A DNA stretch of 57,502 nt from Patescibacteria group bacterium (GCA_021734125.1 JAIPJN010000002.1:1-57502); one strand, 5' to 3'; numbered from the stretch's first letter, positions 10,587-23,278 are shown. Notes: a model not told the origin generated them from the sequence alone. Translations and numbers: made by a program.

Positions 10587-10886
10587 GGAACGCGCCGTGG
10601 CGCGTTCCATCCATTTTAATATTAACGAATTATTCACAAAAATATATTGTAGTGGCCAGCCATGGCTGGCCATGCACATTGTTCGCCCGTTTTATTTCAA
10701 AATAATAAATAAAAAAATAATATTATTTTATAAAATAATGTAGTGGCCAACCATGGTTGGCCATTGAAAATTATGCGTCCATTTTATATTATGTGCCCGT
10801 TTTGTTTAAATATAAAATTAAACAAATATTGTGGGAACGCGCCGTGGCGCGTTCCCATATGATTTATAAAATAATCACAAATATTT
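10587..10886. repeat. cluster of four GC-rich palindromes (B, A, A', B) with conserved flanks
   Basis: ggaacgcgccgtggcgcgttcc at 10587-10608 and 10834-10855. tggccagccatggctggcca at 10653-10672. tggccaaccatggttggcca at 10743-10762. 26-bp tail at 10861-10886. Confidence 0.9.
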
Positions 10887-11147
10887 ATACAAATCGTGTT
10901 TTCCTATTGATATAAATAATATATCTCCATTTTTCATTCTTTCAAAAATAATCCTATATCCAGAAGTTATAGAAATAGACCAAATACCTTGAAATTTTCC
11001 ATGTAACTCATGAAGCCTTAAAGATGGATGTAAAGGATTATCTTTAAAAATTATTTCTTTTTTAATTGCTATATTAAGAATATTTTCAGGTAAATTTTTT
11101 AATTCTTTAACAAATTTTTTTGAATATAAAATTTTATTTATAATCAT
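10875..11147 (-). CDS. type II toxin, RelE/StbE family
   Basis: 90 aa. HELHGKFQGIWSISITSGYRIIF...ISIGKHDLY matches the RelE/ParE-superfamily pattern. Overlaps the upstream antitoxin gene by 4 nt. Confidence 0.75.
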   Translation of the reverse strand: MIINKILYSKKFVKELKNLPENILNIAIKKEIIFKDNPLHPSLRLHELHGKFQGIWSISITSGYRIIFERMKNGDILFISIGKHDLYKYL

Positions 11148-11371
11148 AAAAGTTCAGATAAAGAATTTGCAGATATAGATTCACCTTTTTTATATTCCTC
11201 TCTAGAAGATTTAATAGTTTTTAATAACTCATCTTCAGAAATTAAATCATTATCTAAAGAAAATAAATATTTTACATATGAAGAAACAGAATCAAAATTT
11301 CTTTTTTTTGATTTTTTTTTGATATCTTCAAGAATTTCAGAGGGAAGAGATATGCTTAGGACTTTTCTCAT
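11144..11371 (-). CDS. RHH/CopG-like antitoxin
   Basis: 75 aa. N-terminal VLSISLPSEILEDIKKKSKKRNFDSVSSYVKYL is ribbon-helix-helix-like. Position upstream of and overlapping the toxin. Confidence 0.6.
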   Translation of the reverse strand: MRKVLSISLPSEILEDIKKKSKKRNFDSVSSYVKYLFSLDNDLISEDELLKTIKSSREEYKKGESISANSLSELL

Positions 11372-11483: not shown

Positions 11484-11738
11484 TTGACACAATTTTTTTT
11501 GAATGATATTATAAATCTGCAATTAAAAATGCAAAATTTTAAGATTGAGGTATTTCTTTTTGAAATGCCTCTTTTCTTTTTATTTAATTTTTTTGCACAT
11601 ATTAATAACAATACATATTTTTTTTGCAAAAATAAACATAAAGGGTTAAAATAAAGTTGTTTTAAGCCCAATATTGAGCTTAGAATTAATGGATGTTTTT
11701 TGTATAGAGCATCCAAAAAAGGATGCTTAATTTTTTTA
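11484..11738 (+). promoter_or_regulatory. near-consensus promoter followed by two terminator-like hairpins upstream of hsdM
   Basis: TTGACA 11484-11489, 17 nt, tgaTATTAT 11507-11512. Hairpin gaggtatttc/gaaatgcctc 11547-11571 plus T-run. Hairpin agcatcc/ggatgct 11708-11727 plus T-run ending 16 nt before the hsdM ATG. Confidence 0.5.
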
Positions 11739-11753
11739 TGTTATATAAATAAA

Positions 11754-13265
11754 ATGAATGATAATAAAAATTTAAATTTTGAAACTCAGCTTTTTAAAGC
11801 GGCTGATAAACTTCGTAAAAATATTGATGCTGCAGAATACAAAAATGTAGTTCTTGGACTCATTTTTCTAAAATATATTTCTGAATCTTTTCAAGAACTC
11901 TATGATAAGCTAGCTCAAGATGAATTTTCTGATCCAGAAGATAGGGATGAATATAAAGCAGAAAATATATTTTTCGTACCAGAACAAGCAAGATGGAGAA
12001 ATTTACAGGCCAAGGCAAAACTCCCAACTATAGGACAAGAACTTGATGGTGCAATGGAATCTATAGAAAAAGAAAATTCAGAACTTCGTAATGTACTGCC
12101 AAAAGTTTTTGGAAAACCAAACTTAGATAAAACATCGCTTGGTCAACTTATAGATTTAATTTCAAATACAGAACTTAAAGCAACGAGTGAAAATTCAAAA
12201 GATCTTTTTGGTCGTGTTTATGAATATTTTCTAGGAGAATTTGCTAATGCAGAAGGTAAAAAAGGAGGGCAATTTTATACTCCAAAATCTATAGTAAAAC
12301 TAATGGTAGAAATGATTGAACCATATAAAGGAAAGGTTTATGACCCTGCTTGTGGTTCTGGTGGTATGTTTGTAATGAGTGAAAAATTTGTTTTAGGACA
12401 CCAAGGTAGTATTAAAGATATAAATATTTATGGGCAAGAATCTAATCAAACAACTTGGAAATTATCTAAAATGAATCTTGCTATTCGTAATTTATATTCG
12501 AAAGAAGTTGTTTGGAATACTGAAGGTAGTTTTTTAAAAGACGCTCATCCTGATTTAAAAGCAGATTTTGTATTAGCAAATCCTCCATTTAATCAATCAG
12601 ATTGGGGGCAAGAGTATTTGCAAGAAGATGCAAGATGGAAATATGGATTACCACCTGCCGGAAATGCAAATTTTGCTTGGATACAACATATGCTTTATCA
12701 TTTAGCACCACATGGAATAATGGCAACAGTTCTTGCAAATGGGTCACTTAGTTCCAATACATCAGGAGAAGGAGAAATTAGAAAAAATTTAATACAAAAT
12801 TATTTGGTAGAATGTATAGTTGCTCTTCCAAAACAACTTTTTTATAATACAGGAATTCCAGCCTGTATTTGGTTTTTAAGAAAAGAAAAACAAAGTAAAA
12901 GCAAAGAAATACTTTTTATAGATTCTTCAGAAATGGGATTTATGAAAGACAGAGTACATAGAGAGTTTGTAGATGAAGATATAAATAAAATTTCAGAAAC
13001 TTATCATAATTGGAGAAAAAATTCTGAAAAATATAAAGATATTAAGGGATTTTGTAAATCAGCGAGACAGGGAGAAGTAGAAAAAAATGGATTTGTATTA
13101 ACTCCTGGACGTTATGTAGGGATAGTTGATGCAATAGATGATGGTATTCTTTTTGAAGAAAAAATGGAAAAATTAACAACTACTCTAAAAGAACAGATGG
13201 ATAAAGAAAAAGAAATGAATGAGGAAATAAAAAAACAGTTAGAGAAAATAGGATTTAAGATTTAA
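11754..13265 (+). CDS. hsdM: type I restriction-modification methyltransferase subunit
   Basis: HsdM N-terminal domain (LFKAADKLRKNIDAAEYKNVVLGLIFLKYISE), motif I DPACGSGGM and motif IV LANPPFN. ATG 11754 preferred over the non-ATG start at 11700. Confidence 0.92.
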   Translation: MNDNKNLNFETQLFKAADKLRKNIDAAEYKNVVLGLIFLKYISESFQELYDKLAQDEFSDPEDRDEYKAENIFFVPEQARWRNLQAKAKLPTIGQELDGAMESIEKENSELRNVLPKVFGKPNLDKTSLGQLIDLISNTELKATSENSKDLFGRVYEYFLGEFANAEGKKGGQFYTPKSIVKLMVEMIEPYKGKVYDPACGSGGMFVMSEKFVLGHQGSIKDINIYGQESNQTTWKLSKMNLAIRNLYSKEVVWNTEGSFLKDAHPDLKADFVLANPPFNQSDWGQEYLQEDARWKYGLPPAGNANFAWIQHMLYHLAPHGIMATVLANGSLSSNTSGEGEIRKNLIQNYLVECIVALPKQLFYNTGIPACIWFLRKEKQSKSKEILFIDSSEMGFMKDRVHREFVDEDINKISETYHNWRKNSEKYKDIKGFCKSARQGEVEKNGFVLTPGRYVGIVDAIDDGILFEEKMEKLTTTLKEQMDKEKEMNEEIKKQLEKIGFKI

Positions 13266-13267
13266 AA
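13210..13267 (+). repeat. 58-bp direct repeat, copy 1 (the true 3' end of hsdM)
   Basis: aagaaatgaatgAGgaaataaaaaaacagttagagaaaataggatttaagatttaaaa. Matches 14510-14567 except for 2 nt, exactly 1300 bp apart. Confidence 0.95.
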
Positions 13268-13272
13268 GATAC

Positions 13273-13310
13273 TTGACATAATTGACATAATGTCAACTAA
13301 ATAGTAAAAT
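13273..13310 (+). promoter_or_regulatory. candidate fic promoter overlapping a 15-bp perfect palindrome
   Basis: ttgacataa (13273-13281), then TTGACATAATGTCAA (13282-13296). 17 nt after its TTGACA comes TAAAAT (13305-13310). A related split half-site pair lies at 13313-13337. Confidence 0.5.
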
Positions 13311-13344
13311 AATGGACATAATCGATATAATGTAAACTAATTTT

Positions 13345-14475
13345 ATGGAAAATATTCAGATAGGTAAATATATACAACAACCTAATGATTATAGGGCGTT
13401 TATCCCGAATAATTTTCCGGTGCCTGAAATGCTTAAAATTCCACAAGAATTATTAAATAAAGCAGTTTTAGCTGAAAGGTTATTAGGAAAGTTAGACGGA
13501 GTAACTCAAACTTTACCAGATATTGATTTTTTTATAAGAATGTTTAGTTATAAAGATGCCACTAATTCTTCTCAAATAGAAGGCACTCAAGCTACTATGG
13601 CGGATGCTTTGGAATTATCAGTTAAAATAAATGATAAAGAAACTGATGCAAATGATATTATTTTTTATATAAAAGCATTAGATTACGGTTTAAAAAAAAT
13701 ACAAGAAATACCATTATCCTTAAGATTTATTAAAGAAATTCATAAAGAATTAATGTATGGGGCTAGATCTACTCATTATTCTGCTCCTGGGGAATTTAGA
13801 GCTTCACAAAATTGGTTAGGAGGAGTGACTATAAAACAAGCTTCTTTTATCCCTATTCCTCATGATCAAATGTATGAAAAACTATCTGATTTAGAAAAAT
13901 TTTTACATAATAAAACTTTAACTTTACCAATTATAAATATTGCATATTCTCATGCTCAATTTGAAACAATCCATCCATTTTTAGATGGTAATGGAAGAGT
14001 TGGAAGACTTCTAATAACTTTTTTATTACAATATAATAAAACACTAGAAAAACCAGTTTTATTTTTATCTTCATTTTTTAAAAAACATCAAAAATTGTAT
14101 TATCAAAAATTAAATAATTATCATAATGGAGAAGTTTTTGAGTGGTTAGAATTTTTTTTAGATGGAGTTATTGAAACGGCTAAAGAATCTATTGAAATAT
14201 CTCAAAATGTAAGGAAAATAAAGGAAAAAGATATGACAAAAATTCAATTATTAGGTAAAAGAGAATCAAAAAGTACAATGAAAGTTTTATTTTATTTATT
14301 TTCTAATCCTATTATTACAAATTCTAAAATTGCTGAAGTTACTAATTTATCAAGACAGGGCTCAGTAAATATGAGTAATAGATTAAAAGAATTAGGGATA
14401 TTAAATGAAATACCATCAAAAACCAATTATGATAAAAAATATATTTATACGGAATATTTTAATACTTTTGTTTAA
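13345..14475 (+). CDS. Fic-family protein (Fic core with C-terminal wHTH-like tail)
   Basis: Canonical Fic motif HPFLDGNGRVGR, with SSQIEGT upstream of it as in long Fic proteins. The C-terminus ...SKIAEVTNLSRQGSVNMSNRLKELGIL is HTH-like. Confidence 0.9.
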   Translation: MENIQIGKYIQQPNDYRAFIPNNFPVPEMLKIPQELLNKAVLAERLLGKLDGVTQTLPDIDFFIRMFSYKDATNSSQIEGTQATMADALELSVKINDKETDANDIIFYIKALDYGLKKIQEIPLSLRFIKEIHKELMYGARSTHYSAPGEFRASQNWLGGVTIKQASFIPIPHDQMYEKLSDLEKFLHNKTLTLPIINIAYSHAQFETIHPFLDGNGRVGRLLITFLLQYNKTLEKPVLFLSSFFKKHQKLYYQKLNNYHNGEVFEWLEFFLDGVIETAKESIEISQNVRKIKEKDMTKIQLLGKRESKSTMKVLFYLFSNPIITNSKIAEVTNLSRQGSVNMSNRLKELGILNEIPSKTNYDKKYIYTEYFNTFV

Positions 14476-14509
14476 AAAAATATGTCTAATAGTAAAGAAA
14501 ATACAAATA

Positions 14510-14567
14510 AAGAAATGAATGCAGAAATAAAAAAACAGTTAGAGAAAATAGGATTTAAGATTTAAAA
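14510..14567 (+). repeat. 58-bp direct repeat, copy 2 (orphan copy of the hsdM 3' end)
   Basis: Same sequence as 13210-13267. With an upstream ATG (14482) it forms a 27-codon mini-ORF ending ...EMNAEIKKQLEKIGFKI, which mimics the HsdM C-terminus. Confidence 0.95.
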
Positions 14568-14569
14568 AT

Positions 14570-15022
14570 ATGGAAAAATATTTATTTAATTTAGTAAAAG
14601 ATAATATAGTTTGGTTTGTATTAGTTGCCTTATTTCTACTTTTTATTGTAATTCCCATACAAAGTATAAAAATATTTTCGAAATTAATTAAAAATAATAG
14701 AAAACCTGGGTATGGTGAACGTCTAGCAGATAGATATATTGATTTATATTTAAATAAAGAATCTAGAATTTTTAAGAAAAAAATGAATATTTCCATAAAT
14801 ACAAAATCAAGTATTTTAAGTTTTAATGTTAATGGAATGGGGCAAGTAGATAAAAAATTACAAGAATTAGATTTATTAGAAATAAAAGATAATAAAATTA
14901 TTTTTTCTAAAAATAAAAAAGATAGATTTAAAAATTATATAATTTTTAAATTAGTTAGATTTTATTTAATCAATTTTTTAGGAGATAAAAAAGATTTATA
15001 TAAAATAAATAAAAATGCCTAA
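14570..15022 (+). CDS. hypothetical protein, single N-terminal TM helix (ORF-A)
   Basis: 150 aa. Hydrophobic segment IVWFVLVALFLLFIVIPI. ATG lies 5 nt after the duplicated hsdM stop. Its stop overlaps the next ATG (ATGCCTAA). Confidence 0.6.
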   Translation: MEKYLFNLVKDNIVWFVLVALFLLFIVIPIQSIKIFSKLIKNNRKPGYGERLADRYIDLYLNKESRIFKKKMNISINTKSSILSFNVNGMGQVDKKLQELDLLEIKDNKIIFSKNKKDRFKNYIIFKLVRFYLINFLGDKKDLYKINKNA

Positions 15023-15731
15023 TATAGAAGAAAATACAACTAAAGGAATTAATACAGAAATTAAATATAATTGGCAATTATTTGCAGAAAGTTTTTTAAC
15101 TATTACAAAATGCGGTTGTGAAAAAATTTTGAATGATAATAAAATCGGTATGACAACTGAAGGTTTCGAAGACAGAAAATTAATTATTTCTACTGTATAT
15201 AATTTTAAACACTCTTTAGAAATTATATTAAAAACTTTAATTAAGAATTTTTATCCAGAAAAATTGAAAACTACTCATGATATAGAAAACGTTTTCAAAG
15301 ATATATATCCCACTATTTTTAATAATATTATTTTAAAATATAAATCTAAAAAGAAATTATTAAATAATAATAATTATGAAGATCTATTTGAAGTTACTGA
15401 ATTAACTGAAACCTCTTTAAAAGATAAATTTGTAAAATTACAAGAATTAGTAGACTATTATATTAATATTTCTTTTATAAAAAAAGAAATTATAAGTATA
15501 AAAGATGTAAAAAATACATTATTTAAATATCCAGAACAAAAAGATAAACAAGTATCTTTAGATTATTTACATTTTATGAGAAAAGAAAATTTTGAGGAAG
15601 TTAAGAATATTATTAAAAAAGTTAATAAAGATTGTGATGAATTACTGGGAATTATGAGATTAATTTTAATTATAAATATTTGGTTTAAAAAATTAGAAAA
15701 TTTATCAAATAATTCAGAAAATGAAAAATAA
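15015..15731 (+). CDS. hypothetical protein (ORF-B), no recognisable motif
   Basis: 238 aa. 8-nt overlap with ORF-A and 11-nt overlap with the hsdS start, so translationally coupled. No family signature I can name. Confidence 0.65.
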   Translation: MPNIEENTTKGINTEIKYNWQLFAESFLTITKCGCEKILNDNKIGMTTEGFEDRKLIISTVYNFKHSLEIILKTLIKNFYPEKLKTTHDIENVFKDIYPTIFNNIILKYKSKKKLLNNNNYEDLFEVTELTETSLKDKFVKLQELVDYYINISFIKKEIISIKDVKNTLFKYPEQKDKQVSLDYLHFMRKENFEEVKNIIKKVNKDCDELLGIMRLILIINIWFKKLENLSNNSENEK

Positions 15732-16956
15732 TAAATTTAAAATTCAAAATAAAAATTTCTCTCCAAGTGGTTGGGTGGAGACGACTTTGGGGGAGGTTTG
15801 CGAGATAAATCCAACAGAATCTTTACCAAAAGGAAAAATAGCAAAATGTGTCCCTATGGATTGTATTAATTCTTTCACAAGACAAATTTCAAGATTTGAA
15901 GAAAAAGAATTTAATGGAGGAATGAAATTTAGAAATGGAGATACTTTACTTGCAAGAATTACACCTTGTTTGGAAAATGGGAAAACTGCTTATGTAGATT
16001 TTTTAGATGAAAATGAAATTGGTTTTGGTTCTACTGAATATATTGTGATTAGAGAAAAACAAGGATTGAGTGATAAAAAATTTCTTTATTATCTAGCTGT
16101 ATCTCCAAGCTTTAAAGAAATTGCAATTAAAGCAATGACTGGAACTTCTGGAAGACAAAGGGTTCAAATTGATGTTTTGGTAAATAAAAACTTTCTTCTC
16201 CCGCCTCTCCCCGGACAACAAGCCATCGCTTCTGTTCTCTCGGCTTTTGATGATAAGATTGAATTATTAAGAGAAGAAAATAAAACGCTGGAAGAGACAG
16301 GACAAGTAATTTTTAAAGAATGGTTTGGAAAATATAGTGTAGATAAACCCGAAGAATTACCAGAAGGATGGAGAGTTGGGAAGTTGGGGGAAAAAAATTT
16401 TGCAGAAATTATTGGAAGTGGAATAAATGAATTTGATGGTGAAAAAATATATTTAGCAACAGCTAATGTTTCAGATTCAAATATTACAAATACAAATGAA
16501 AAAATAACATTTAAAGAAAGGCCTTCTCGTGCAAATATGCAACCGATAGAAAAAAGTATTTGGTTTGCAAAAATGCAAGATAGCAGAAAATTATTAATGT
16601 TTGATGATTATTCAGAATTTGAAATAGAAAATTTTATTTTATCAACAGGTTTTGCAGGAATTAAAACAACAGAAATTTCTCATTATTTTATGTGGTGTTT
16701 TATTTTAAGCAAAGAGTTTGATGAATTAAAAAATAATATGGCAAATGGTGCGGTTCAAATAGCAGTAAATAATACAAATTTAGAAAAAATTGAAATTCTA
16801 ATTCCAGATAATGAAACACTTGTAAAATTTAATGAATTAGCAAAACCAATATTTAAAAAAATTTACGATAACAATTCTCAAATCCAATCCCTCGCTTGTA
16901 GTCGTGATGAAATTTTGCCGAAACTCATGGCTGGGATGGTTAGAGTAAATTTTTAA
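15721..16956 (+). CDS. hsdS: type I restriction-modification specificity subunit
   Basis: 411 aa with two target-recognition halves. Conserved spacer region LPPLPGQQAIASVLSAFDDKIELL and C-terminal SLACSRDEILPKLMAGMVRV are typical of HsdS. Confidence 0.9.
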   Translation: MKNNKFKIQNKNFSPSGWVETTLGEVCEINPTESLPKGKIAKCVPMDCINSFTRQISRFEEKEFNGGMKFRNGDTLLARITPCLENGKTAYVDFLDENEIGFGSTEYIVIREKQGLSDKKFLYYLAVSPSFKEIAIKAMTGTSGRQRVQIDVLVNKNFLLPPLPGQQAIASVLSAFDDKIELLREENKTLEETGQVIFKEWFGKYSVDKPEELPEGWRVGKLGEKNFAEIIGSGINEFDGEKIYLATANVSDSNITNTNEKITFKERPSRANMQPIEKSIWFAKMQDSRKLLMFDDYSEFEIENFILSTGFAGIKTTEISHYFMWCFILSKEFDELKNNMANGAVQIAVNNTNLEKIEILIPDNETLVKFNELAKPIFKKIYDNNSQIQSLACSRDEILPKLMAGMVRVNF

Positions 16957-16974
16957 TTTTAACAAGGGAAAAAT

Positions 16975-17847
16975 ATGTCAATTGCTACTAAATTTGAAAA
17001 CCTTTGTAAAAATATACTAATAAGTCAAAATGATGCTGATAAAATTTCAAGTCGTTATAAGGCCATTACAAAAAGACTTAATAAAGATTTTTGGAATACA
17101 GAATCAGAAGAAAGTCATAGTTTATATGTTGGGTCATATGGAAGAGACACAGATATTCATGTAAGTGATGTGGATATGATTTTTCAACTACCGTATTCAG
17201 TGTATGAAACATACAACAATTATCTAGGGAATGGACAATCTTCATTATTACAAGCCGTAAGAACCTCTTTACAAAAAACATATTCAACAACACATATAAA
17301 AGGTGATGGTCAAATTATTGGTATAAATTGGGATGATGGTATTTGTTTTGAAATAGTCCCTTGTTTTATAAATAAAGATGATAGCTATACATTTCCTGAT
17401 AGTAATAATGGAGGTTCTTGGAAAACGACAAATCCTAAGCCAGAAATTAAAGCAATTAGAGAAAAAAATGTTGAATGCAATTATAATCTAAAAAGTCTTT
17501 GTAGAATGATTAGAGCATGGAAAGATAATTGTAGTGTTCCTCTCGGTGGTTTATTGATTGATACTTTTGCATATAATTTTTTGAGTAATTGGCAATATAA
17601 AGATAAATCGTTTTTATATTATGATTGGATGGTAAGAGATTTTTTTGAATACTTAAAAAATCAAAATGAAGATCAAGAATATTGGTTGGCTCCTGGAAGT
17701 AATCAGAGAGTAAATCGCAAAGGTAAATTTAATTACAAAGCAAAACTAGCATATAACACTATTTTGGAAGCTATGAAAGCAGAAGAATATAAATATGAGT
17801 ATACTGCCAATCAAAAATGGAAAGAAGTGTTTGGTTTAAAATTTTAA
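16975..17847 (+). CDS. SMODS-like (CD-NTase-related) pol-beta-fold nucleotidyltransferase
   Basis: GSYGRDTDIHVSDVDMIF (G-S...D-x-D) and a downstream acidic residue in CFEIVPCF. Size and layout match second-messenger oligonucleotide/dinucleotide synthetase domains. Confidence 0.75.
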   Translation: MSIATKFENLCKNILISQNDADKISSRYKAITKRLNKDFWNTESEESHSLYVGSYGRDTDIHVSDVDMIFQLPYSVYETYNNYLGNGQSSLLQAVRTSLQKTYSTTHIKGDGQIIGINWDDGICFEIVPCFINKDDSYTFPDSNNGGSWKTTNPKPEIKAIREKNVECNYNLKSLCRMIRAWKDNCSVPLGGLLIDTFAYNFLSNWQYKDKSFLYYDWMVRDFFEYLKNQNEDQEYWLAPGSNQRVNRKGKFNYKAKLAYNTILEAMKAEEYKYEYTANQKWKEVFGLKF

Positions 17848-17864
17848 TTTTTAAGGATAACAAT

Positions 17865-18419
17865 ATGGAAAAAAATAATTTATCAATTGTAAGACAACAA
17901 TTTGCACAGTGTGTTTTTAATCATAAGATGCACGAAAAAGCTTCTGATCGTTTAGATGCTTTGCAAGATAAAATAAAATGGATAAATATAATACTTTTGG
18001 CTTTGGTTATTGTGTTTCTTATATTACAAATATATTTTCCAGAACAAACTATATTTGGTGGTATTTCAACTGGCATAACTGTTTTTGAAATTTTATATGC
18101 TTTCTTTCAAAAAGAATTTTCTATTGAAGATAGAGCTAAAGAACACAAAAAAATAGCATTACAATATTTAGGGCTTAGAGATAAATATAAAAATTTTGTG
18201 ATTGATATAATGAATGATTTAGAAAGTGAAAAAATAGTATCAAAAAGAGATTTATTACAGGATCAATACCAAATTATAAATAGCCTGTCTCTTCAAACGA
18301 CATATGCAGACTATGAGAAAGCTCAATTAGATTTACTTGGAAAGACAAATAAGGACGAACAATTTACTTGGTCTGATACCGAGATAAATCGTTTTTTACC
18401 AAAAGATTTACATATTTAA
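17865..18419 (+). CDS. SLATT-domain 2TM protein
   Basis: 184 aa from ATG 17865 (ORF-track 17817 overlaps the previous gene). Helical N-terminus, then two adjacent TM helices (WINIILLALVIVFLILQIYF, IFGGISTGITVFEILYAFF), then a helical tail. Sits directly after the SMODS gene. Confidence 0.7.
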   Translation: MEKNNLSIVRQQFAQCVFNHKMHEKASDRLDALQDKIKWINIILLALVIVFLILQIYFPEQTIFGGISTGITVFEILYAFFQKEFSIEDRAKEHKKIALQYLGLRDKYKNFVIDIMNDLESEKIVSKRDLLQDQYQIINSLSLQTTYADYEKAQLDLLGKTNKDEQFTWSDTEINRFLPKDLHI

Positions 18420-18429
18420 AAATTTCACT

Positions 18430-21400
18430 ATGACTACACTAAACGAATCTAATATTGAACAAAACCTTATAGACCTTCTTATAAACCAAGGCTATGAGTA
18501 TTTTTATGGTCCAGACATTGCTCCATATTCTGCAAATCAGCAAAGAGAAAGATTTGATTCAGTAATTTTAGAAAATCATCTAAAAGCTTCTTTAAAAAGA
18601 TTAAATCCAAACATTCCAGAATCAGCAAGAGACGAAGCCTATCAAAATATTCTAAATTTAGGTTCACAGGATTTAATGGCAAATAATGAAAAATTTCATA
18701 ATTTTCTAACAAATGGAATAAATGTAGAATATTTTAATAATGGAAATACCGATAGTGTAAATGTAAAACTTTTTGATATAGAAAATATTGAAAATAATAG
18801 CTTTTGGGTAGTCAATCAATTTGTGATTAAAGAAAATAATAACGAAAAAAGGTTAGATGTCGTAATTTTTGTAAATGGATTGCCTTTAGTTGTTATAGAA
18901 TTAAAAAATGCAACAGATGAAAAGGCAACATTAGAAAGAGCTTTTACACAAATTCAAAATTATAAAAAAGCAGTGCCAAGTATTTTTTACTATAACTCAC
19001 TTTGTATTATTTCAGATGGAATAGATGCAAGAGTTTCTTCAATTTCCGCACAATTTAGTAGATTTCTCGCATGGAAATCACCAGAAAAAAGAGAAAATGG
19101 AAGATTACCAGAAATGCAAATTATGGTTGAAAGAATGTTTAATAAAAAAGTTTTACTTCATTTAATTAAATATAATACCGTTTTTGAACAGGAAGAAAAA
19201 AAAGATGAAAAGACAGGTTTATTATCTGTTGTAAAAATAAAAAAAGTTGCAGCATACCATCAATATTATGCAGTAGAAAAAGCTATAAAAGAAACATTAA
19301 GAGCAACAAAAGAAAAAGAAGGAAATAAAAAAATAGGAATAATTTGGCATACTCAAGGATCAGGAAAATCACTTTCAATGGTTTTTTATGCAGGGCAAAT
19401 AGTAATAGAACCAGAAATGAAAAACCCAACAATCGTAATTTTAACAGATAGAAATGATTTAGATGATCAACTTTTTAATACTTTTGGAAATTGTAAGCAA
19501 CTTCTTCGTCAAACTCCAGTTCAAGCAAAAAACAGAGAACATTTAAAAGAATTATTAAAAGTATCAAGCGGTGGAATTATTTTTACTACTATTCAAAAAT
19601 TTTCTCCAAGTGAAGGAAATATTTATGAAACATTATCAGAAAGATCAAATATTGTTGTAGTTGCAGATGAAGCCCATCGTAGTCAATATGGGTTTAAAGG
19701 AAGAGAGGTAGAGACAAAAGATGGTTCAGAAATAAGATATGGGAATGCAAAATATTTAAGAGATGCTTTACCAAAAGCTTCATTTATAGGATTTACAGGG
19801 ACACCAATCGAAAAAGAAGATAGATCAACAAGAGGAGTTTTTGGAGATGAAATAGATATTTATGATATTAGGCAATCAGTTGATGATGGCGCTACTGTTT
19901 TAATTAGTTATGAATCAAGATTAGTAAAAATTAGAATAGACCAGGAAGCAATAAGTAAAATTGATTATGCTGTAGATGAAATACAAGATGTTACTAAAGA
20001 ACAAATAGAAAAGGCGAAAAAGAAAAATTCAAAAATAGACGCAATCGTAGGACATCCTGATAGACTTAAAGATATTGCAAAAGATATTGTGGACCATTTT
20101 GAAGCAAGACAAAAAAGTTTTGAAGGGAAGGCAATGGTTGTTTGTATGACAAGACAAATAGCAGTAAATTTATATAAAGAGATTATTAATCTTTGCCCAG
20201 ATTGGCATAATGATGATTTAATGAAGGGAAATTTGAAAATTGTAATGACTTCAAGTAGTGATGATCCAGAAAGTTTTCAACCTCATCATACTAATAAGGA
20301 GGATAGAAAAAAACTTGCTCTAAGACTTAAAGATATAAATGATTCACTTAAAATGGTTATTGTTCAATCAATGTGGCTTACTGGTTTTGATGTTCCTTGT
20401 TTACATACCATGTATGTTGATAAAAAAATGCAAGGAGCAAATCTAATGCAAGCAATTGCCCGCGTAAATCGTGTTTATAAAGATAAACCAGGAGGATTAA
20501 TTGTTGATTATATTGGTATTGGACAAGATTTAAGAAATGCAATGAAAATTTATACTTCAAGCGGAGGAGAAGGTGAAGCTGTTCTTGATATTTCAGAAGT
20601 AATTGCAGGAATGAAAACAAAATTTGAAATAGTTGAACAAATGTTTTACGGATTTGATTATAAAGAATATTTTAAAGCAGAAAATAATGAAAAATTAACA
20701 ATCCTTCTTAATGCAACAAACTTTATACTACAAGATGAAAAATTAAAAAATAGATTTATTTCTGCAATTACTGCACTTTCAAAATTTTTTGCAATGGCAG
20801 TACCGAGTTTTGAATCAGAACAAATAAGAGATGAAGTTGCATTTTTTCAAGCAGTAAAAGCTCGTATTAATAAATTCACTCCAAGTGGTGGAAAATCAGA
20901 TAAACAAGTAGAAACGGCGATCAAGCAAATTGTTGAAGAAGCTTTAGCAAGTGATGGAGTTATAGATATCTTTAAAGCATCAGGAATTGAAACGCCTACT
21001 CTTGATATTTTATCAGAAGAGTTTTTGTTGGAGGTAAAAAATATGAAGCAAAAAAATATAGCTTTTGAATTACTTCGCAAACTTTTGAATGATGAAATAA
21101 AAATCAGAAAGATAAAAAATATGATACAAGGGAAAAAATTCTCTGAAATGTTAGAAAATATGATTAAAAAATACCACAATAATCAAATTGATACTGCACA
21201 AGTTATTCAAGAATTATGTGATATTGCTCGTGAAATGAAATTAGAAGATAAAAAAGCAGAAGATACTGGTCTTACTAAAGAAGAATATGCTTTTTATTCA
21301 ATATTAGCAGAAAATGAATCTACTAAATTTTTAGAAGATCAAAAAATGAAAGAATTAATACATATTATTGTAGATATAGTTCGTAAAAATGCTACTGTTG

Positions 21401-21558
21401 ATTGGGAAAAAAGAGAAGATGTAAGAGCAAAACTTAGAATAACAGTGAAAAAAATATTAATGAGATATGGATATCCACCAGATCTTGCAAGAATAGAAGC
21501 AGATAGAGTACTTGAACAAAGTGAATTATTAGCAAGTGAATTAACAAGTAATAATTAG
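18430..21558 (+). CDS. hsdR: type I restriction enzyme endonuclease subunit
   Basis: 1042 aa. N-terminal nuclease region (DVVIFVNGLPLVVIELK), helicase Walker A TQGSGKSLSM, VVADEAHRSQ DEAH box and a C-terminal HsdR domain. Confidence 0.93.
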   Translation: MTTLNESNIEQNLIDLLINQGYEYFYGPDIAPYSANQQRERFDSVILENHLKASLKRLNPNIPESARDEAYQNILNLGSQDLMANNEKFHNFLTNGINVEYFNNGNTDSVNVKLFDIENIENNSFWVVNQFVIKENNNEKRLDVVIFVNGLPLVVIELKNATDEKATLERAFTQIQNYKKAVPSIFYYNSLCIISDGIDARVSSISAQFSRFLAWKSPEKRENGRLPEMQIMVERMFNKKVLLHLIKYNTVFEQEEKKDEKTGLLSVVKIKKVAAYHQYYAVEKAIKETLRATKEKEGNKKIGIIWHTQGSGKSLSMVFYAGQIVIEPEMKNPTIVILTDRNDLDDQLFNTFGNCKQLLRQTPVQAKNREHLKELLKVSSGGIIFTTIQKFSPSEGNIYETLSERSNIVVVADEAHRSQYGFKGREVETKDGSEIRYGNAKYLRDALPKASFIGFTGTPIEKEDRSTRGVFGDEIDIYDIRQSVDDGATVLISYESRLVKIRIDQEAISKIDYAVDEIQDVTKEQIEKAKKKNSKIDAIVGHPDRLKDIAKDIVDHFEARQKSFEGKAMVVCMTRQIAVNLYKEIINLCPDWHNDDLMKGNLKIVMTSSSDDPESFQPHHTNKEDRKKLALRLKDINDSLKMVIVQSMWLTGFDVPCLHTMYVDKKMQGANLMQAIARVNRVYKDKPGGLIVDYIGIGQDLRNAMKIYTSSGGEGEAVLDISEVIAGMKTKFEIVEQMFYGFDYKEYFKAENNEKLTILLNATNFILQDEKLKNRFISAITALSKFFAMAVPSFESEQIRDEVAFFQAVKARINKFTPSGGKSDKQVETAIKQIVEEALASDGVIDIFKASGIETPTLDILSEEFLLEVKNMKQKNIAFELLRKLLNDEIKIRKIKNMIQGKKFSEMLENMIKKYHNNQIDTAQVIQELCDIAREMKLEDKKAEDTGLTKEEYAFYSILAENESTKFLEDQKMKELIHIIVDIVRKNATVDWEKREDVRAKLRITVKKILMRYGYPPDLARIEADRVLEQSELLASELTSNN

Positions 21559-21586
21559 TTTTATAAATAACTAAATCCTCAATCTA

Positions 21587-22213
21587 ATGAATAAACAAAT
21601 TCAAATCTTATATATTCACGGTGGGGGAACCTTTAAAAACAACGAAGAATACATAGAATATCTAAAAACAAAAGAAATAAAAATAGAAGAAACAGAAAGA
21701 TGGTCTGATGAATATTTTGATAAAAAATTATTAAAAAAATTCAAAATGATAAAACCAAAAATGCCATGCAAAGAAAATGCAAAATACGAAGAATGGAAAA
21801 TACAATTTGAAAGATATTTAGAAAAAATGGATCAAGATTTAGTGTTAATAGGAACATCACTCGGAGGAATATTCCTAGCAAAATATCTATCAGAAAATAA
21901 ATTAAATAAAAACATAATATCAACATATCTAATAGCACCACCATTTGATGCAAAATCAGTGAATGAAGAAGAAGTTTTTGGAGGATTCGAATTAAAAGAT
22001 AATCTAGAAAAAATAGAAGAAAATTGCAAAAAAGTAGTGTTCATGTTTTCAAAAAACGATAATGTAGTTAATATTTCAGCAAAAACAGGGTATCAAGAGA
22101 AATTAAAAAAATCAAAATTCATAGAATTTAAAGATAAAAATGGACATTTCAGAATATCAAAATTCCCAGAAATAATAGAAATGTTAAAAGAGGATTATAA
22201 AAATTTCAAATAA
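21587..22213 (+). CDS. alpha/beta hydrolase, YdeN/RBBP9-like serine hydrolase
   Basis: 208 aa. ILYIHGGG, nucleophile elbow GTSLGG, C-terminal ...NGHF. Lies 28 nt after hsdR with no terminator between. Confidence 0.65.
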   Translation: MNKQIQILYIHGGGTFKNNEEYIEYLKTKEIKIEETERWSDEYFDKKLLKKFKMIKPKMPCKENAKYEEWKIQFERYLEKMDQDLVLIGTSLGGIFLAKYLSENKLNKNIISTYLIAPPFDAKSVNEEEVFGGFELKDNLEKIEENCKKVVFMFSKNDNVVNISAKTGYQEKLKKSKFIEFKDKNGHFRISKFPEIIEMLKEDYKNFK

Positions 22214-22221
22214 ACATCGTA

Positions 22222-22322
22222 GGAACGCGCCGTGGCGCGTTCCACCCAAATAAAAAATAAAATAATGTAGGAACGCGCCGTGGCGCGTTCCTACGTGATT
22301 TATAAAATAATCACAAATATTT
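22222..22322. repeat. two ggaacgcgccgtggcgcgttcc palindromes plus 26-bp tail
   Basis: Palindromes at 22222-22243 and 22270-22291. The tail gatttataaaataatcacaaatattt at 22297-22322 is identical to 10861-10886. Confidence 0.9.
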
Positions 22323-22444: not shown

Positions 22445-23278
22445 ATGAATAATAATGAAGTAGATAAAAACAATAAAATAGCTCTTTTTGAAAAAAAAGA
22501 AATCCGTAAAATTTGGCATAATAACGAATGGTATTTTTCAGTGGTTGATGTAGTAGGAATTTTGACTGATAGTTTAAATTATCAGTCCTCAAGAAAATAT
22601 TGGAATAAACTTTCTCAAAGGCTTCATGAAGAAAATAGTGAAGTGGTGACAAAATGTCACCAGTTAAAATTACTTGCTACAGATGGAAAAATGAGATTAA
22701 CAGATTGTGCTAATACAGAAGGAATATTAAGAATTATTCAATCTATTCCTTCTCCCAAAGCAGAACCGTTTAAAAGATGGCTTGCTAAAGTTGGATATGA
22801 AAGAATAGAAGAAATAGAAAATCCAGAATTAGCTCAGAAAAGAATGAAAAAAATTTATGAAGCTAAAGGCTATCCTGAAGATTGGATAGATAAAAGAATC
22901 CGAGGTATTTCTATTCGTCAAAATTTAACAGATGAATGGAGAAATAGGGGTTTTTCAAATCCAAGTGATTATTCAATTCTTACTGCTGAAATTAGTAAAG
23001 CTACATTTGGGATGACCCCTAGTGAATACAAAAAATTAAAAAATATTCCAGAAAAATCCAAAATAAATCTTAGAGATAATATGACAGACCTTGAATTAAT
23101 TTTTACCATGCTTGGAGAAAGAGTAACTACAGAAATTTCTAAAAAAGAAGAGCCCGATGGAATGGTAGAAAATAAAAAAGTTGCAAAAAGAGGTGGTAAA
23201 GTTGCTGGAGATGCAAGAAAAGGAACTGAAAAAGAAATAGGAGATACAATTATTAATAAGGGGAATTATTTAAATTAA
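22445..23278 (+). CDS. Bro-N domain protein (DinD / phage antirepressor-like)
   Basis: N-terminal FEKKEIRKIWHNNEWYFSVVDVVGILTDS is a Bro-N pattern. The C-terminal part resembles DinD-type proteins. Confidence 0.6.
   Translation: MNNNEVDKNNKIALFEKKEIRKIWHNNEWYFSVVDVVGILTDSLNYQSSRKYWNKLSQRLHEENSEVVTKCHQLKLLATDGKMRLTDCANTEGILRIIQSIPSPKAEPFKRWLAKVGYERIEEIENPELAQKRMKKIYEAKGYPEDWIDKRIRGISIRQNLTDEWRNRGFSNPSDYSILTAEISKATFGMTPSEYKKLKNIPEKSKINLRDNMTDLELIFTMLGERVTTEISKKEEPDGMVENKKVAKRGGKVAGDARKGTEKEIGDTIINKGNYLN

What the first reader, a model, noticed from the sequence alone, without database searches (positions are those of the whole stretch)
11754..22213. Type I R-M operon in which every subunit junction carries an inserted conflict-type cassette
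There are nine same-strand genes. Gaps between them are at most 30 nt or they overlap. The exception is the stretch around fic: about 80 nt between hsdM and fic, and about 95 nt after fic that holds the orphan hsdM-tail copy. The order is hsdM | Fic | ORF-A (TM) | ORF-B | hsdS | SMODS NTase | SLATT 2TM | hsdR | alpha/beta hydrolase.

Single inserts inside type I R-M loci are known (for example the PrrC/RloC anticodon nucleases, and Fic/Doc genes). Here three different cassettes split M from S and S from R, and a fourth gene trails R. All sit behind one promoter region and end at a palindrome cluster. This architecture suggests a layered system. The R-M complex would provide first-line restriction. 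A nucleotide-signal plus membrane effector pair, an AMPylase-type enzyme and an unknown pair would be co-expressed, possibly guarding or being licensed by the R-M complex. I am not aware of this exact composite having been described, but I cannot search to confirm that.
Basis: partly seen in the sequence, partly recalled or inferred. Interest (0 to 1): 0.8.

Follow-up and report, generated by a model that had tools for sequence, protein, structure and literature searches.

The report
Defence genes nested inside a restriction operon
An intact type I restriction-modification operon carries other anti-phage modules between all of its subunit genes, which is a new and dense example of a published kind of nesting, and its cyclic-nucleotide signalling pair belongs to a lineage found mostly inside restriction operons.

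Summary
Nine same-strand, tightly packed genes read hsdM | Fic | ORF-A | ORF-B | hsdS | CD-NTase | SLATT_4 | hsdR | serine hydrolase. All catalytic motifs I checked are intact.

Corrections:
- SLATT starts at 17865.
- fic has its own promoter-like site.
- The terminal palindromes belong to a repeat family scattered across the window, not to this operon.

Nesting of defence genes inside type I R-M operons is published (Payne et al. 2024 'guilt-by-embedding'; PrrC; TgvAB; Campylobacter rlo genes). Two-junction occupancy recurs in at least seven other loci I recovered, including an Arcobacter plasmid and Synechocystis pSYSX. The locus is therefore a new member of a known kind.

New points:
- The CD-NTase/SLATT_4 pair belongs to a clade found inside R-M operons in 11 of 16 sampled loci, on unrelated hsd backbones.
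- In an orthologous locus (L067) the pair is much younger than its hsd flanks: 92% identical codons against 55-61%. The M|S slot there holds GmrSD instead.
- fic sits between two copies of the hsdM 3' end, which marks a recombinational insertion.
- ORF-B founds a family of about 99 distant, weakly HEPN-like proteins that are not linked to hsd genes.
- ORF-A and the hydrolase show no recurrent linkage.

PrrC-like coupling to the R-M complex remains untested.

The parts
10875..11371 (-). Divergent RelE-type toxin (10875-11147) and a small upstream partner (11144-11371), forming the left edge of the defence island
   Evidence: PHROGs RelE-like toxin 3.6e-8; ORFs overlap by 4 nt
11484..11512 (+). 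Best sigma-70-like promoter match for the operon (TTGACA-17-TATTAT with TG)
   Evidence: 11 of 12 match; consensus match only
11518..11753 (+). Structured 5' leader with two terminator-like hairpins (11547-11571, 11707-11728)
   Evidence: Terminator scan; fold z-score -4.8; no Rfam family; not conserved upstream of hsdM in L067
11754..13265 (+). hsdM, type I methyltransferase subunit
   Evidence: N6_Mtase 1.5e-109, HsdM_N 7e-25; PADLOC MTase_I 1e-200; DPACGSGG and NPPF motifs are in the translation
13201..13267 (+). Left copy of the 67-nt direct repeat (the functional hsdM 3' end)
   Evidence: family D1
13282..13310 (+). Promoter-like site of the fic cassette, within GACATAAT repeats
   Evidence: 11 of 12 match; sequence
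13345..14475 (+). SoFic-like class II Fic AMPylase with a C-terminal wHTH
   Evidence: Fic_N, Fic, HTH_24; PADLOC SoFic 3.3e-103; motifs HPFLDGNGRVGR and SSQIEG in the translation; below the NCBIfam SoFic equivalog cut-off
14481..14567 (+). Right copy of the hsdM tail (14501-14567), read by a 27-codon remnant ORF (14481-14564) whose start resembles the ORF-B start
   Evidence: 93% identity, spacing 1300 (D1); 82% over 60 nt to 15006-15065 (D2); the MNAEIKK variant matches the L067 hsdM tail
14570..15022 (+). ORF-A, 150 aa with one N-terminal transmembrane helix; no homologue found
   Evidence: Hydropathy; no Pfam, PADLOC, NCBIfam or PHROGs family; no relative in IMG/VR or in 83 fetched loci; AF2 pLDDT 62
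15015..15731 (+). ORF-B, 238 aa, all-helical; founding member of a distant, weakly HEPN-like family
   Evidence: 99 distant relatives; invariant H66 E69 K73 H88 D164 N167 P173; 20 of 60 relatives hit PF05168 HEPN weakly; AF2 pLDDT 84
15721..16956 (+). hsdS, specificity subunit with two target-recognition domains
   Evidence: Methylase_S 2.8e-18; full-length PADLOC Specificity_I matches
16975..17847 (+). CD-NTase (SMODS), CdnD-like minimal cyclase
   Evidence: SMODS 4.6e-54; PADLOC Cyclase 5e-139; profile against PDB matches CdnD 6p8u/6p82 at E 1e-17 over the full length; invariant G53 S54 D65 D67 E126
17865..18419 (+). SLATT_4 two-TM effector
   Evidence: SLATT_4 1.7e-31; PADLOC 2TM effector 3.8e-37; hydrophobic segments; start set by homologues
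18430..21558 (+). hsdR, restriction/translocase subunit (T1RH-like_C family)
   Evidence: HSDR_N, SWI2_SNF2, T1R_D3-like, T1RH-like_C; TIGR00348 603 bits against a cut-off of 285; the DEAH box and D..ELK are in the translation
21587..22213 (+). Trailing serine hydrolase (PF06821, YdeN/RBBP9-like), in the post-hsdR slot
   Evidence: Ser_hydrolase 6e-8, 33 bits against a cut-off of 22; GTSLG nucleophile elbow in the translation; no PADLOC hit; only distant archaeal and actinobacterial plasmid relatives
22222..22291 (.). Two copies of the GC-rich palindrome GGAACGCGCCGTGGCGCGTTCC, a REP-like genome-wide repeat that ends the operon
   Evidence: 7 copies in the window, 0 expected; terminator-like only on the - strand
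22445..23278 (+). Bro-N protein (PADLOC candidate PDC-S13), adjacent to the operon and outside it
   Evidence: PDC-S13 5.8e-118; Bro-N 5e-14; a 44% identical relative lies between hsdS and hsdR in L023

Best explanation
This is a nested defence island. An intact type I R-M operon (hsdM, hsdS, hsdR) has captured autonomous second-line modules in the gaps between its subunit genes.

The captured modules:
- M|S slot: a SoFic-like Fic AMPylase with its own promoter-like site, then an uncharacterised pair made of a 1-TM protein and a weakly HEPN-like helical protein.
- S|R slot: a minimal type I CBASS, made of a CdnD-like CD-NTase and a SLATT_4 two-TM effector.
- After hsdR: a serine hydrolase.

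Shown:
- Gene identities and intact catalytic motifs.
- Operon-like packing, with no convincing internal + strand terminator.
- Turnover of cassettes on a conserved backbone.
- A recombination scar around fic.
- Preferential residence of this CBASS clade inside R-M operons.

Inferred:
- The R-M enzyme restricts unmodified DNA first.
- Phages that escape are met by modules that each sense infection on their own and stop the cell. The CD-NTase would make a cyclic oligonucleotide that opens the SLATT membrane effector. Fic would AMPylate a target. ORF-A/B would act as a membrane-linked toxic pair.
- Nesting links their transcription and their horizontal transfer to that of the R-M genes. It does not require physical coupling.
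- Cassettes enter by recombination at or near hsd gene ends.
For: - Identities.
- Motifs: (GS...DVD...E in the cyclase, HPFLDGNGRVGR in Fic, NPPF in HsdM, DEAH in HsdR). Cyclase catalytic residues are invariant in 27 relatives, and the closest solved proteins are CD-NTases.
- Packing and terminators.
- Cassette turnover: L067 has HsdM 85%, HsdR 84%, SMODS 90% and SLATT 88% identity. It carries GmrSD in the M|S slot and an extra 270-aa gene in the S|R slot.
- Recent exchange of the CBASS pair: identical-codon fraction is 92% and 85% for the pair, against 61% (hsdM) and 55% (hsdR).
- fic scar: 67-nt duplicate of the hsdM tail, spacing 1300 nt. The orphan copy carries the L067-like variant.
- Clade association: all six hsd-embedded cyclases of the first two scans form one NJ clade. 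In total, 10 type I and 1 type II R-M contexts against 5 others among relatives of at least 59% identity. The comparison group is 0 of 8 among relatives of 56% identity or less with long flanks; Fisher p = 0.002.
- Unrelated backbones: HsdM 27-40% and HsdR 24-33% identity; EcoR124_C against T1RH-like_C HsdR families.
- Same design in isolates: Arcobacter CP146529.1, Aeromonas NZ_CP136591.1, Synechocystis pSYSX.
- Autonomy: members of the same clade stand alone in L019, L021, L074 and L075. Fic relatives stand alone on plasmids and in viral contigs.
- The published framework fits: embedded genes share the host system's orientation in 96.7% of cases (bioRxiv 10.1101/2024.01.29.577857).
Against: - No expression or phenotype data exist. 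Co-transcription rests on spacing and consensus scans only.
- A strongly structured leader with two terminator-like hairpins precedes hsdM, so expression may be conditional.
- ORF-A has no homologues at all.
- ORF-B's HEPN assignment is weak. ORF-B itself hits no Pfam model, no Rx4-6H motif is conserved, and Foldseek finds nothing significant.
- The hydrolase has no defence annotation and no recurrent linkage.
- The clade-level preference for R-M operons on unrelated backbones is more than a neutral 'genomic sink' readily predicts. It leaves room for functional coupling.
Confidence: 0.62

Rival explanations
1. PrrC-like guard. The R-M-embedded CD-NTase/SLATT_4 lineage, and possibly other inserts, is functionally coupled to the R-M enzyme. 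It would be held silent by the R-M complex, or use it as a sensor. It would fire when a phage anti-restriction protein (Ocr, ArdA or Stp type) disables the complex, or when restriction produces DNA ends.
For: - The clade is inside R-M operons in 11 of 16 sampled loci, on hsd backbones only 24-40% identical, and once inside a type II R-M pair.
- Homologous recombination with flanking hsd sequence cannot explain that spread across unrelated backbones.
- The pair has no promoter-sized gap of its own.
- It occupies the S|R slot. From my own knowledge, prrC occupies the same slot in the EcoprrI locus.
- The pair was recently re-acquired in the same slot in two diverged orthologous loci.
- PrrC is almost exclusively embedded in type I R-M systems and is unleashed by Stp (bioRxiv 10.1101/2024.01.29.577857).
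Against: - Members of the same clade, 65-69% identical, sit alone next to integrases, a T4SS or an HTH gene (L074, L075; also L019 and L021). They presumably work without an R-M partner.
- The position varies between M|S and S|R, and the R-M type varies between I and II. That argues against a fixed protein-protein interface.
- The proteins have no extra domain beyond SMODS and SLATT_4.
- No interaction could be computed with the tools at hand.
Confidence: 0.2
2. Neutral sink with passengers. The hsd junctions simply tolerate insertions. Some inserts (ORF-A/B, the hydrolase) are not defence genes at all. They could be passengers, decaying remnants, or accessories of the R-M enzyme itself. For example, the hydrolase could fill the slot that YgjP/SprT-like peptidases fill after hsdR elsewhere.
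For: - ORF-A and the hydrolase have no defence-family hit and no recurrent hsd linkage.
- ORF-B relatives in Parcubacteria lie in variable neighbourhoods without hsd genes.
- The post-hsdR slot holds a YgjP/SprT metallopeptidase in L023, L071, L072, L076, L077, L078 and L080, and NERD in L020.
- The 'genomic sink' idea is the published default.
Against: - ORF-A/B overlap by 8 nt and ORF-B overlaps hsdS by 11 nt, and both are intact.
- ORF-B belongs to a family with invariant polar residues, so it is under selection.
- ORF-B relatives sit near Fic, Bro-N, RelB, GIY-YIG and DUF559 genes.
- The hydrolase keeps its nucleophile elbow.
- Most embedded genes in surveyed systems are defence-related or unknown rather than housekeeping.
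Confidence: 0.15

Closest known systems
Defence systems 'embedded' in type I R-M, BREX, DISARM and Hma operons (Payne, Hughes, Fineran, Jackson 2024, bioRxiv 10.1101/2024.01.29.577857)
   Same: Same-strand cassettes of one to three genes sit between the subunit genes of a multi-gene defence system. A mix of known systems and unknowns is found there. The PADLOC candidate families that hit this window (PDC-S13 for the Bro-N protein, PDC-S04 weakly for Fic) are listed under the PDC prefix that this paper introduced.
   Different: This locus has three different cassettes plus a trailing gene in one operon. ORF-A/B are not in PADLOC. The paper's main text and its 11 held supplementary files do not mention CBASS or SoFic, so the clade-level R-M association of this CD-NTase/SLATT_4 lineage is not stated there.
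PrrC in the EcoprrI type I R-M locus (and RloC)
   Same: An abortive-infection effector is nested in a type I operon. PrrC is almost exclusively found embedded. From my own knowledge, prrC lies between hsdS and hsdR, as the CBASS pair does here.
   Different: No ABC-ATPase/anticodon-nuclease gene is present here. Physical masking by the R-M complex is shown for PrrC and untested here.
TgvAB, a GmrSD-like type IV system embedded in the Vibrio cholerae VPI-2 type I R-M operon (PMC11411939), and the Campylobacter jejuni rlo genes cited there
   Same: A two-gene module sits between hsd genes, protects on its own, and protects better with the whole cluster. The orthologous locus L067 carries a GmrSD gene in the M|S slot.
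   Different: The window carries Fic plus ORF-A/B in that slot, and a signalling system in the other.
Type I CBASS (CD-NTase plus two-TM effector, no accessory genes)
   Same: A SMODS cyclase closest to CdnD structures is followed by a SLATT_4 two-TM protein. There are no Cap2/Cap3 or HORMA/TRIP13 genes.
   Different: It has no promoter-sized gap of its own and sits inside an hsd operon. Its clade is mostly R-M-embedded, whereas more distant relatives on plasmids stand alone.
SoFic (PADLOC model PDLC03963)
   Same: Full-length match at 3e-103. Fic motif and N-terminal inhibitory motif are present.
   Different: 147 bits against the 550-bit cut-off of NCBIfam's SoFic equivalog, so it is a family relative, not an equivalog.
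Annotated but, as far as I found, undescribed loci: Arcobacter sp. AZ-2023 plasmid CP146529.1, Aeromonas veronii pAV1812-2 NZ_CP136591.1, Synechocystis PCC 6803 pSYSX NC_005232.1
   Same: hsdM | (RhuM/Fic) | hsdS | cyclase | SLATT | ... | hsdR | trailing peptidase, or M|hyp|S|Fic|HigB|regulator|R|SprT. Both junctions are filled.
   Different: Their cyclases are only 44-46% identical and carry an extra C-terminal domain. Their Fic is of the RhuM type or lies on the opposite strand. Their trailing gene is a SprT/YgjP metallopeptidase, not a serine hydrolase.

Membership tests
Type I restriction-modification system | HsdM: gamma-class N6-adenine methyltransferase with an AdoMet motif and NPPF | tested here: met
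   N6_Mtase 1.5e-109 and HsdM_N; DPACGSGG and LANPPFN in the translation
Type I restriction-modification system | HsdS with two target-recognition domains | tested here: met
   Methylase_S; full-length matches to several PADLOC Specificity_I profiles, for example residues 22-408
Type I restriction-modification system | HsdR with an N-terminal nuclease, an SF2 motor and a C-terminal domain | tested here: met
   HSDR_N, SWI2_SNF2, T1R_D3-like, T1RH-like_C; TIGR00348 603 bits, above the cut-off
Type I restriction-modification system | Methylation of a bipartite site and restriction of unmodified DNA | not testable with these tools
   Needs methylome sequencing and transformation or phage assays
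CBASS type I | CD-NTase fold with the GS...DxD...[DE] catalytic residues | tested here: met
   SMODS 4.6e-54; G53 S54 D65 D67 E126 invariant in 27 relatives; profile matches CdnD structures at E 1e-17 over the full length
CBASS type I | Adjacent effector gene and no Cap2/Cap3 or HORMA/TRIP13 accessory genes | tested here: met
   SLATT_4 starts 17 nt downstream; no such accessory domains in the locus
CBASS type I | Infection-triggered cyclic oligonucleotide that activates the effector | not testable with these tools
   Needs biochemistry. No solved relative of this SLATT_4 protein exists
SoFic (Fic AMPylase defence gene) | Fic motif HxFx(D/E)GNGRxxR and inhibitory motif (S/T)xxxE(G/N) | tested here: met
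   HPFLDGNGRVGR and SSQIEG; PADLOC SoFic 3.3e-103
SoFic (Fic AMPylase defence gene) | Score above NCBIfam's equivalog cut-off (NF046030, 550 bits) | tested here: not met
   146.9 bits
HEPN superfamily (for ORF-B) | Match to a HEPN profile | tested here: inconclusive
   ORF-B itself has no Pfam hit. 20 of 60 family members hit PF05168 at E up to 1, best 3.8e-5. Foldseek: HEPN-MNT toxin 7bxo_F at rank 30 with E 1.1
HEPN superfamily (for ORF-B) | Conserved Rx4-6H RNase motif | tested here: not met
   Invariant residues are H66 E69 K73 H88 D164 N167 P173. No invariant Arg 4-6 residues before a His
PrrC/RloC-type R-M-guarding anticodon nuclease | ABC-type ATPase fused to an anticodon-nuclease domain, nested in hsd genes | tested here: not met
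   No ATPase or AAA_13 domain in any window gene of the locus. AAA_13 genes do occupy the S|R slot in L020 and L068
Hailong (HalB nucleotidyltransferase plus HalA channel, inhibitory DNA signal) | Sequence relationship to the HalB/HalA proteins whose structures were reported in 2025 | tested here: not met
   Single-sequence and profile searches of the PDB return only CD-NTases for the cyclase and nothing for SLATT. I could not confirm that the HalA/HalB entries are in the PDB copy. The primary paper was not held
Embedded defence cassette (sense of Payne et al. 2024) | Genes lying between the genes of a multi-gene defence system, on the same strand | tested here: met
   Five genes between hsdM, hsdS and hsdR, all on the + strand

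The most novel reading that the evidence does not exclude
The CD-NTase/SLATT_4 lineage found here is a CBASS specialised for life inside R-M operons and works as a PrrC-like guard. It would be triggered by phage inhibition of the restriction complex, or by the complex's activity on invading DNA. That would make the R-M enzyme the infection sensor of a nucleotide-signalling system.
Probability: 0.2. Interest if true: 0.8.

Novelty: new member of a known kind. Interest (0 to 1): 0.45.

Why it matters
How type I CBASS cyclases sense infection is largely open. A lineage that sits persistently inside R-M operons on unrelated backbones is a natural place to test whether restriction activity, or its inhibition, is the trigger.

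The locus and its orthologue L067 give a clean natural experiment in cassette turnover. The backbone is the same, the M|S cargo differs, and the CBASS pair was exchanged recently.

By the published guilt-by-embedding logic, ORF-A/ORF-B is a testable candidate for a new two-gene defence module. ORF-B's roughly 99-member family has conserved His, Asp, Glu and Lys residues that could be mutated.

If the modules turn out to be merely co-located, the locus is one more, unusually dense, example of a known pattern.

Tried and rejected
- **Hailong instead of CBASS:** rejected. PDB searches with the cyclase alone and as a 27-sequence profile return only CD-NTases. SLATT returns nothing.
- **PrrC/RloC-type gene in the window:** none present.
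- **ORF-B related to the DUF4145 proteins that precede the cyclase in L023/L024:** hhalign probability 0.2. Rejected.
- **ORF-B fold:** the AF2 model is good (pLDDT 84), but Foldseek against the PDB and BFVD gives only non-significant helical bundles. The profile against the PDB gives nothing.
- **ORF-A:** no family, no relatives, and a poor single-sequence model (pLDDT 62). I did not search with it.
- **k-mer-indexed homologue searches for ORF-B:** the single-sequence search returned only ORF-B itself. The profile search returned ORF-B and four others.
- **IMG/VR scans for the hydrolase and ORF-A:** nothing found.
- **Fic in IMG/VR:** 32 loci, none near hsd genes. This collection is biased to phages, so it says little about chromosomes.
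- **Rfam:** no family in the hsdM leader.
- **The terminal palindromes as an operon-specific feature:** rejected, because they are dispersed repeats.
- **The island as an insertion bracketed by direct repeats:** the copies at 10834 and 22270 share a 27-nt flank. Other copies have related flanks, so this may only reflect a repeat subfamily.
- **Source organism:** I did not identify it. The closest cyclase in the 185,579 representative genomes is only 68% identical.

Full report
**1. Observation**

The stretch 11754-22213 holds nine + strand ORFs. Pfam, PADLOC and NCBIfam assign them as follows.

| Gene | Coordinates | Evidence |
|---|---|---|
| hsdM | 11754-13265 | N6_Mtase 1.5e-109 |
| Fic | 13345-14475 | Fic_N, Fic and a wHTH; PADLOC SoFic 3.3e-103 |
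| ORF-A | 14570-15022 | no family |
| ORF-B | 15015-15731 | no family |
| hsdS | 15721-16956 | Methylase_S; full-length PADLOC Specificity_I |
| CD-NTase | 16975-17847 | SMODS 4.6e-54; PADLOC cyclase 5e-139 |
| SLATT_4 two-TM protein | 17865-18419 | SLATT_4 1.7e-31 |
| hsdR | 18430-21558 | TIGR00348, 603 bits |
| serine hydrolase | 21587-22213 | PF06821 6e-8 |

ORF-A has one N-terminal hydrophobic helix.

Catalytic motifs can be read directly in the translations. These are DPACGSGG and NPPF in HsdM, the DEAH box in HsdR, GS...DVD...E in the cyclase, HPFLDGNGRVGR plus SSQIEG in Fic, and GTSLG in the hydrolase.

The orphan copy of the hsdM tail is real. Positions 14501-14567 are 93% identical to 13201-13267, exactly 1300 nt apart.

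Three corrections apply:
- Every SLATT homologue starts M-[DE]-x-NNL, so the start is 17865.
- A second 11-of-12 promoter match lies just upstream of fic at 13282-13310.
- The terminal palindromes are copies of GGAACGCGCCGTGGCGCGTTCC. This sequence occurs seven times in the window against none expected.

**2. Surroundings**

The operon sits in a chromosome among housekeeping genes. Upstream are SpoIID-domain, pyruvate kinase, TruB and HI0933-like genes. Downstream are RarA, SPFH and MscS genes.

A RelE-type toxin pair lies divergently upstream. A Bro-N protein matching the PADLOC candidate PDC-S13 (5.8e-118) lies just downstream. The whole stretch from about 10.8 to 23.3 kb is therefore a defence island.

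The + strand scan finds no convincing terminator inside the operon. The 240-nt leader before hsdM folds unusually well (z = -4.8) and contains two terminator-like hairpins. It matches no Rfam family.

**3. The CBASS pair**

A 27-sequence profile of the cyclase matches CdnD structures over the full length (6p8u, 6p82; E 1e-17) and then other CD-NTases. Its catalytic residues are invariant. I found no match to Hailong proteins. With no Cap2/3 or HORMA/TRIP13 genes nearby, this is a minimal type I CBASS.

Scans of representative genomes and metagenomes gave 26 related loci. By tblastn and Pfam, the close relatives lie inside type I operons whose hsd genes are only 24-40% identical to those of the window:
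- L003: M-S-HATPase_c-cyclase-SLATT-R
- L020: M-cyclase-SLATT-S-AAA_13-R-NERD
- L023: S'-M-DUF4145-cyclase-SLATT-S-BroN-R-YgjP
- L024 and L018: M-(DUF4145)-cyclase

In an NJ tree these, together with the window, form one clade. Its sister (L019, L021) and all relatives of 56% identity or less are not next to hsd genes.

I then looked up nine further homologues, chosen for contig length.

| Locus | Identity to window cyclase | Context |
|---|---|---|
| L067 | 90% | M-GmrSD-S-cyclase-SLATT-270aa-R |
| L068 | 83% | RhuM/Fic-M-cyclase-SLATT-(S)-AAA_13-R, with an EcoR124_C-type HsdR |
| L069 (Sulfuricurvum) | 76% | between an NgoPII nuclease fragment and a C5 methylase |
| L071, L072 | 74%, 73% | S'-M-RhuM/Fic-S-cyclase-second cyclase-SLATT-R-YgjP |
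| L073 | 68% | same as L003 |
| L076 | 65% | M-cyclase-SLATT-S-R-YgjP |
| L074, L075 | 69%, 65% | stand-alone, on mobile elements |

The tally for relatives of at least 59% identity is 10 type I contexts, 1 type II context and 5 others. The comparison group is 0 of 8 among more distant relatives with long flanks (Fisher p = 0.002).

This test has limits. The sample is small, the threshold was set after seeing the data, and relatedness is not corrected for.

Annotated isolates show the same design with more distant cyclases. These are Arcobacter plasmid CP146529.1, Aeromonas veronii pAV1812-2, and a methylase/helicase pair on a Microcystis plasmid. Most other plasmid homologues stand alone.

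**4. Cassette turnover**

L067 is an orthologous backbone (HsdM 85%, HsdR 84%). It has different cargo in the M|S slot and a clean 835-bp extra gene after SLATT.

At DNA level hsdM and hsdR are 78-79% identical. The segment 16824-18419, which holds the hsdS 3' end, the cyclase and SLATT, is 90% identical.

Among identical residues the codon is also identical in these fractions:
- cyclase: 92%
- SLATT: 85%
- hsdM: 61%
- hsdR: 55%

The pair was therefore exchanged between these loci long after the backbones diverged, and it landed in the same slot.

The fic cassette carries its own scar. The orphan tail copy encodes MNAEIKK, as does the L067 hsdM tail. The functional tail encodes MNEEIKK. This suggests that fic arrived together with a foreign hsdM 3' end. 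The 27-codon remnant ORF at 14481-14564 begins like ORF-B (82% over 60 nt, D2). That hints at a junction formed by microhomology. This last step is inference.

**5. The other inserts**

Fic:
- Relatives of 40-43% identity are stand-alone on two plasmids.
- One relative is nested, on the opposite strand, in the multi-insert type I locus of Synechocystis pSYSX.
- 32 relatives in viral contigs are not near hsd genes.
- Fic is thus a facultative guest.

ORF-B:
- It has no close homologue among 5.8 billion proteins.
- A full HMMER search finds 99 distant, full-length relatives.
- These share NxKHxxExxxK...HD...DxxNTxF[RK]YPE.
- 20 of 60 relatives hit Pfam HEPN weakly.
- The AF2 model (pLDDT 84) is a helical bundle without significant structural neighbours.
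- Two relatives in Parcubacteria lie among Fic, Bro-N, RelB, GIY-YIG and DUF559 genes but not hsd genes, and have no ORF-A-like partner.

ORF-A and the hydrolase have no relatives in any collection I could search. The post-hsdR slot is usually filled by a YgjP/SprT metallopeptidase in the related loci.

**6. Interpretation**

The best reading is a nested defence island. First-line restriction is combined with autonomous second-line modules that share its transcription and its horizontal transfer. Cassettes are exchanged by recombination at hsd gene ends.

This matches the published description of embedding in type I R-M, BREX, DISARM and Hma systems, where embedded genes share the host orientation in 96.7% of cases (bioRxiv 10.1101/2024.01.29.577857). 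It also matches TgvAB in Vibrio cholerae (PMC11411939).

That remains possible for the CBASS pair because of its clade-level preference for R-M operons on unrelated backbones. Stand-alone clade members and the variable slot argue against an obligatory partnership. I put it at about 0.2.

**7. Verdict**

The locus is a new, dense member of a known kind.

The parts worth following up are:
- the R-M-resident CD-NTase/SLATT_4 lineage;
- the natural cassette swap with L067;
- ORF-A/ORF-B as an untested candidate module.

Noticed in passing
window 4024, 10587, 10834, 22222, 22270, 30999, 51978: A 22-nt GC-rich perfect palindrome (GGAACGCGCCGTGGCGCGTTCC) is dispersed in intergenic DNA of a 24% GC genome: 7 copies against 0 expected. 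It looks like a REP-like element family.
   Followed up: partly
window 10652, 10743, 30898, 41531, 52098, 56538: A second palindromic repeat family (GTGGCCARCCATGGYTGGCCA) has six sites, each read on both strands. It often lies within about 100 nt of the first family (10.6-10.8 kb, 30.9-31.0 kb, 52.0-52.1 kb), forming composite clusters.
   Followed up: partly
window 10834-10886 and 22270-22322: The palindrome copies that bracket the toxin pair plus the R-M operon share an exact 27-nt right flank (TGATTTATAAAATAATCACAAATATTT). This is either an island-flanking direct repeat or just one repeat subfamily.
   Followed up: partly
window 11518-11753: The 5' leader of hsdM is about 240 nt long, contains two terminator-like hairpins, and folds far better than shuffles (z = -4.8). 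It has no Rfam match and is not conserved upstream of hsdM in L067. It may be an attenuator.
   Followed up: partly
window 13268-13344: The fic upstream region carries repeated GACATAAT motifs and a partial palindrome overlapping the promoter-like site. Fic has a C-terminal wHTH, so autoregulation is conceivable.
   Followed up: no
L001 and L002 (Logan SRR12088348 and SRR12088349): Two independent short-read assemblies carry the identical locus. Both break 33 nt before ORF-A, inside the duplicated hsdM tail, as expected for a repeat-induced assembly break.
   Followed up: no
L069 9788-12500 (Sulfuricurvum sp. MAG JBAQON010000028.1): A 76% identical cyclase-SLATT pair sits between a 65-aa NgoPII-type nuclease fragment and a C5 DNA methylase. 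It is nested in a possibly decayed type II R-M pair.
   Followed up: no
L071 7001-9752 and L072 7001-9706: Two cyclases sit in tandem (a 292-aa SMODS, then a 440-aa SMODS-AGS_C) ahead of one SLATT effector, inside a type I operon. The effector is SLATT_6 in one contig and SLATT_4 in the other, on an otherwise identical backbone.
   Followed up: no
L079 4451-14343 (Microcystis aeruginosa NIES-2481 plasmid p1): A 58% identical NTase-SLATT pair lies between a 1124-aa N6 methylase and a helicase-related protein, followed by a MotA/ExbB-family gene. This is another nested arrangement in a non-type-I system.
   Followed up: no
L023 9717-10457, L071 13803-14459, L076 12510-13076, L077 16657-, L078 12979-13695, L080 1727-2425: A YgjP/SprT-like metallopeptidase gene follows hsdR, often overlapping it, in most related type I loci. 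The window has a serine hydrolase in that slot instead.
   Followed up: no
P0005: A 2694-aa protein matches residues 75-113 of ORF-B in 14 separate stretches. It may be a repeat protein built from that segment, or a low-complexity artefact.
   Followed up: no
L012 5670-10797 and L015 5916-8741 (Ca. Parcubacteria MAGs): ORF-B relatives in CPR bacteria lie near Fic, an SNF2 helicase, a Bro-N fragment, DUF559, RelB, GIY-YIG and an alpha/beta hydrolase. These look like small variable conflict-gene neighbourhoods in reduced genomes.
   Followed up: partly
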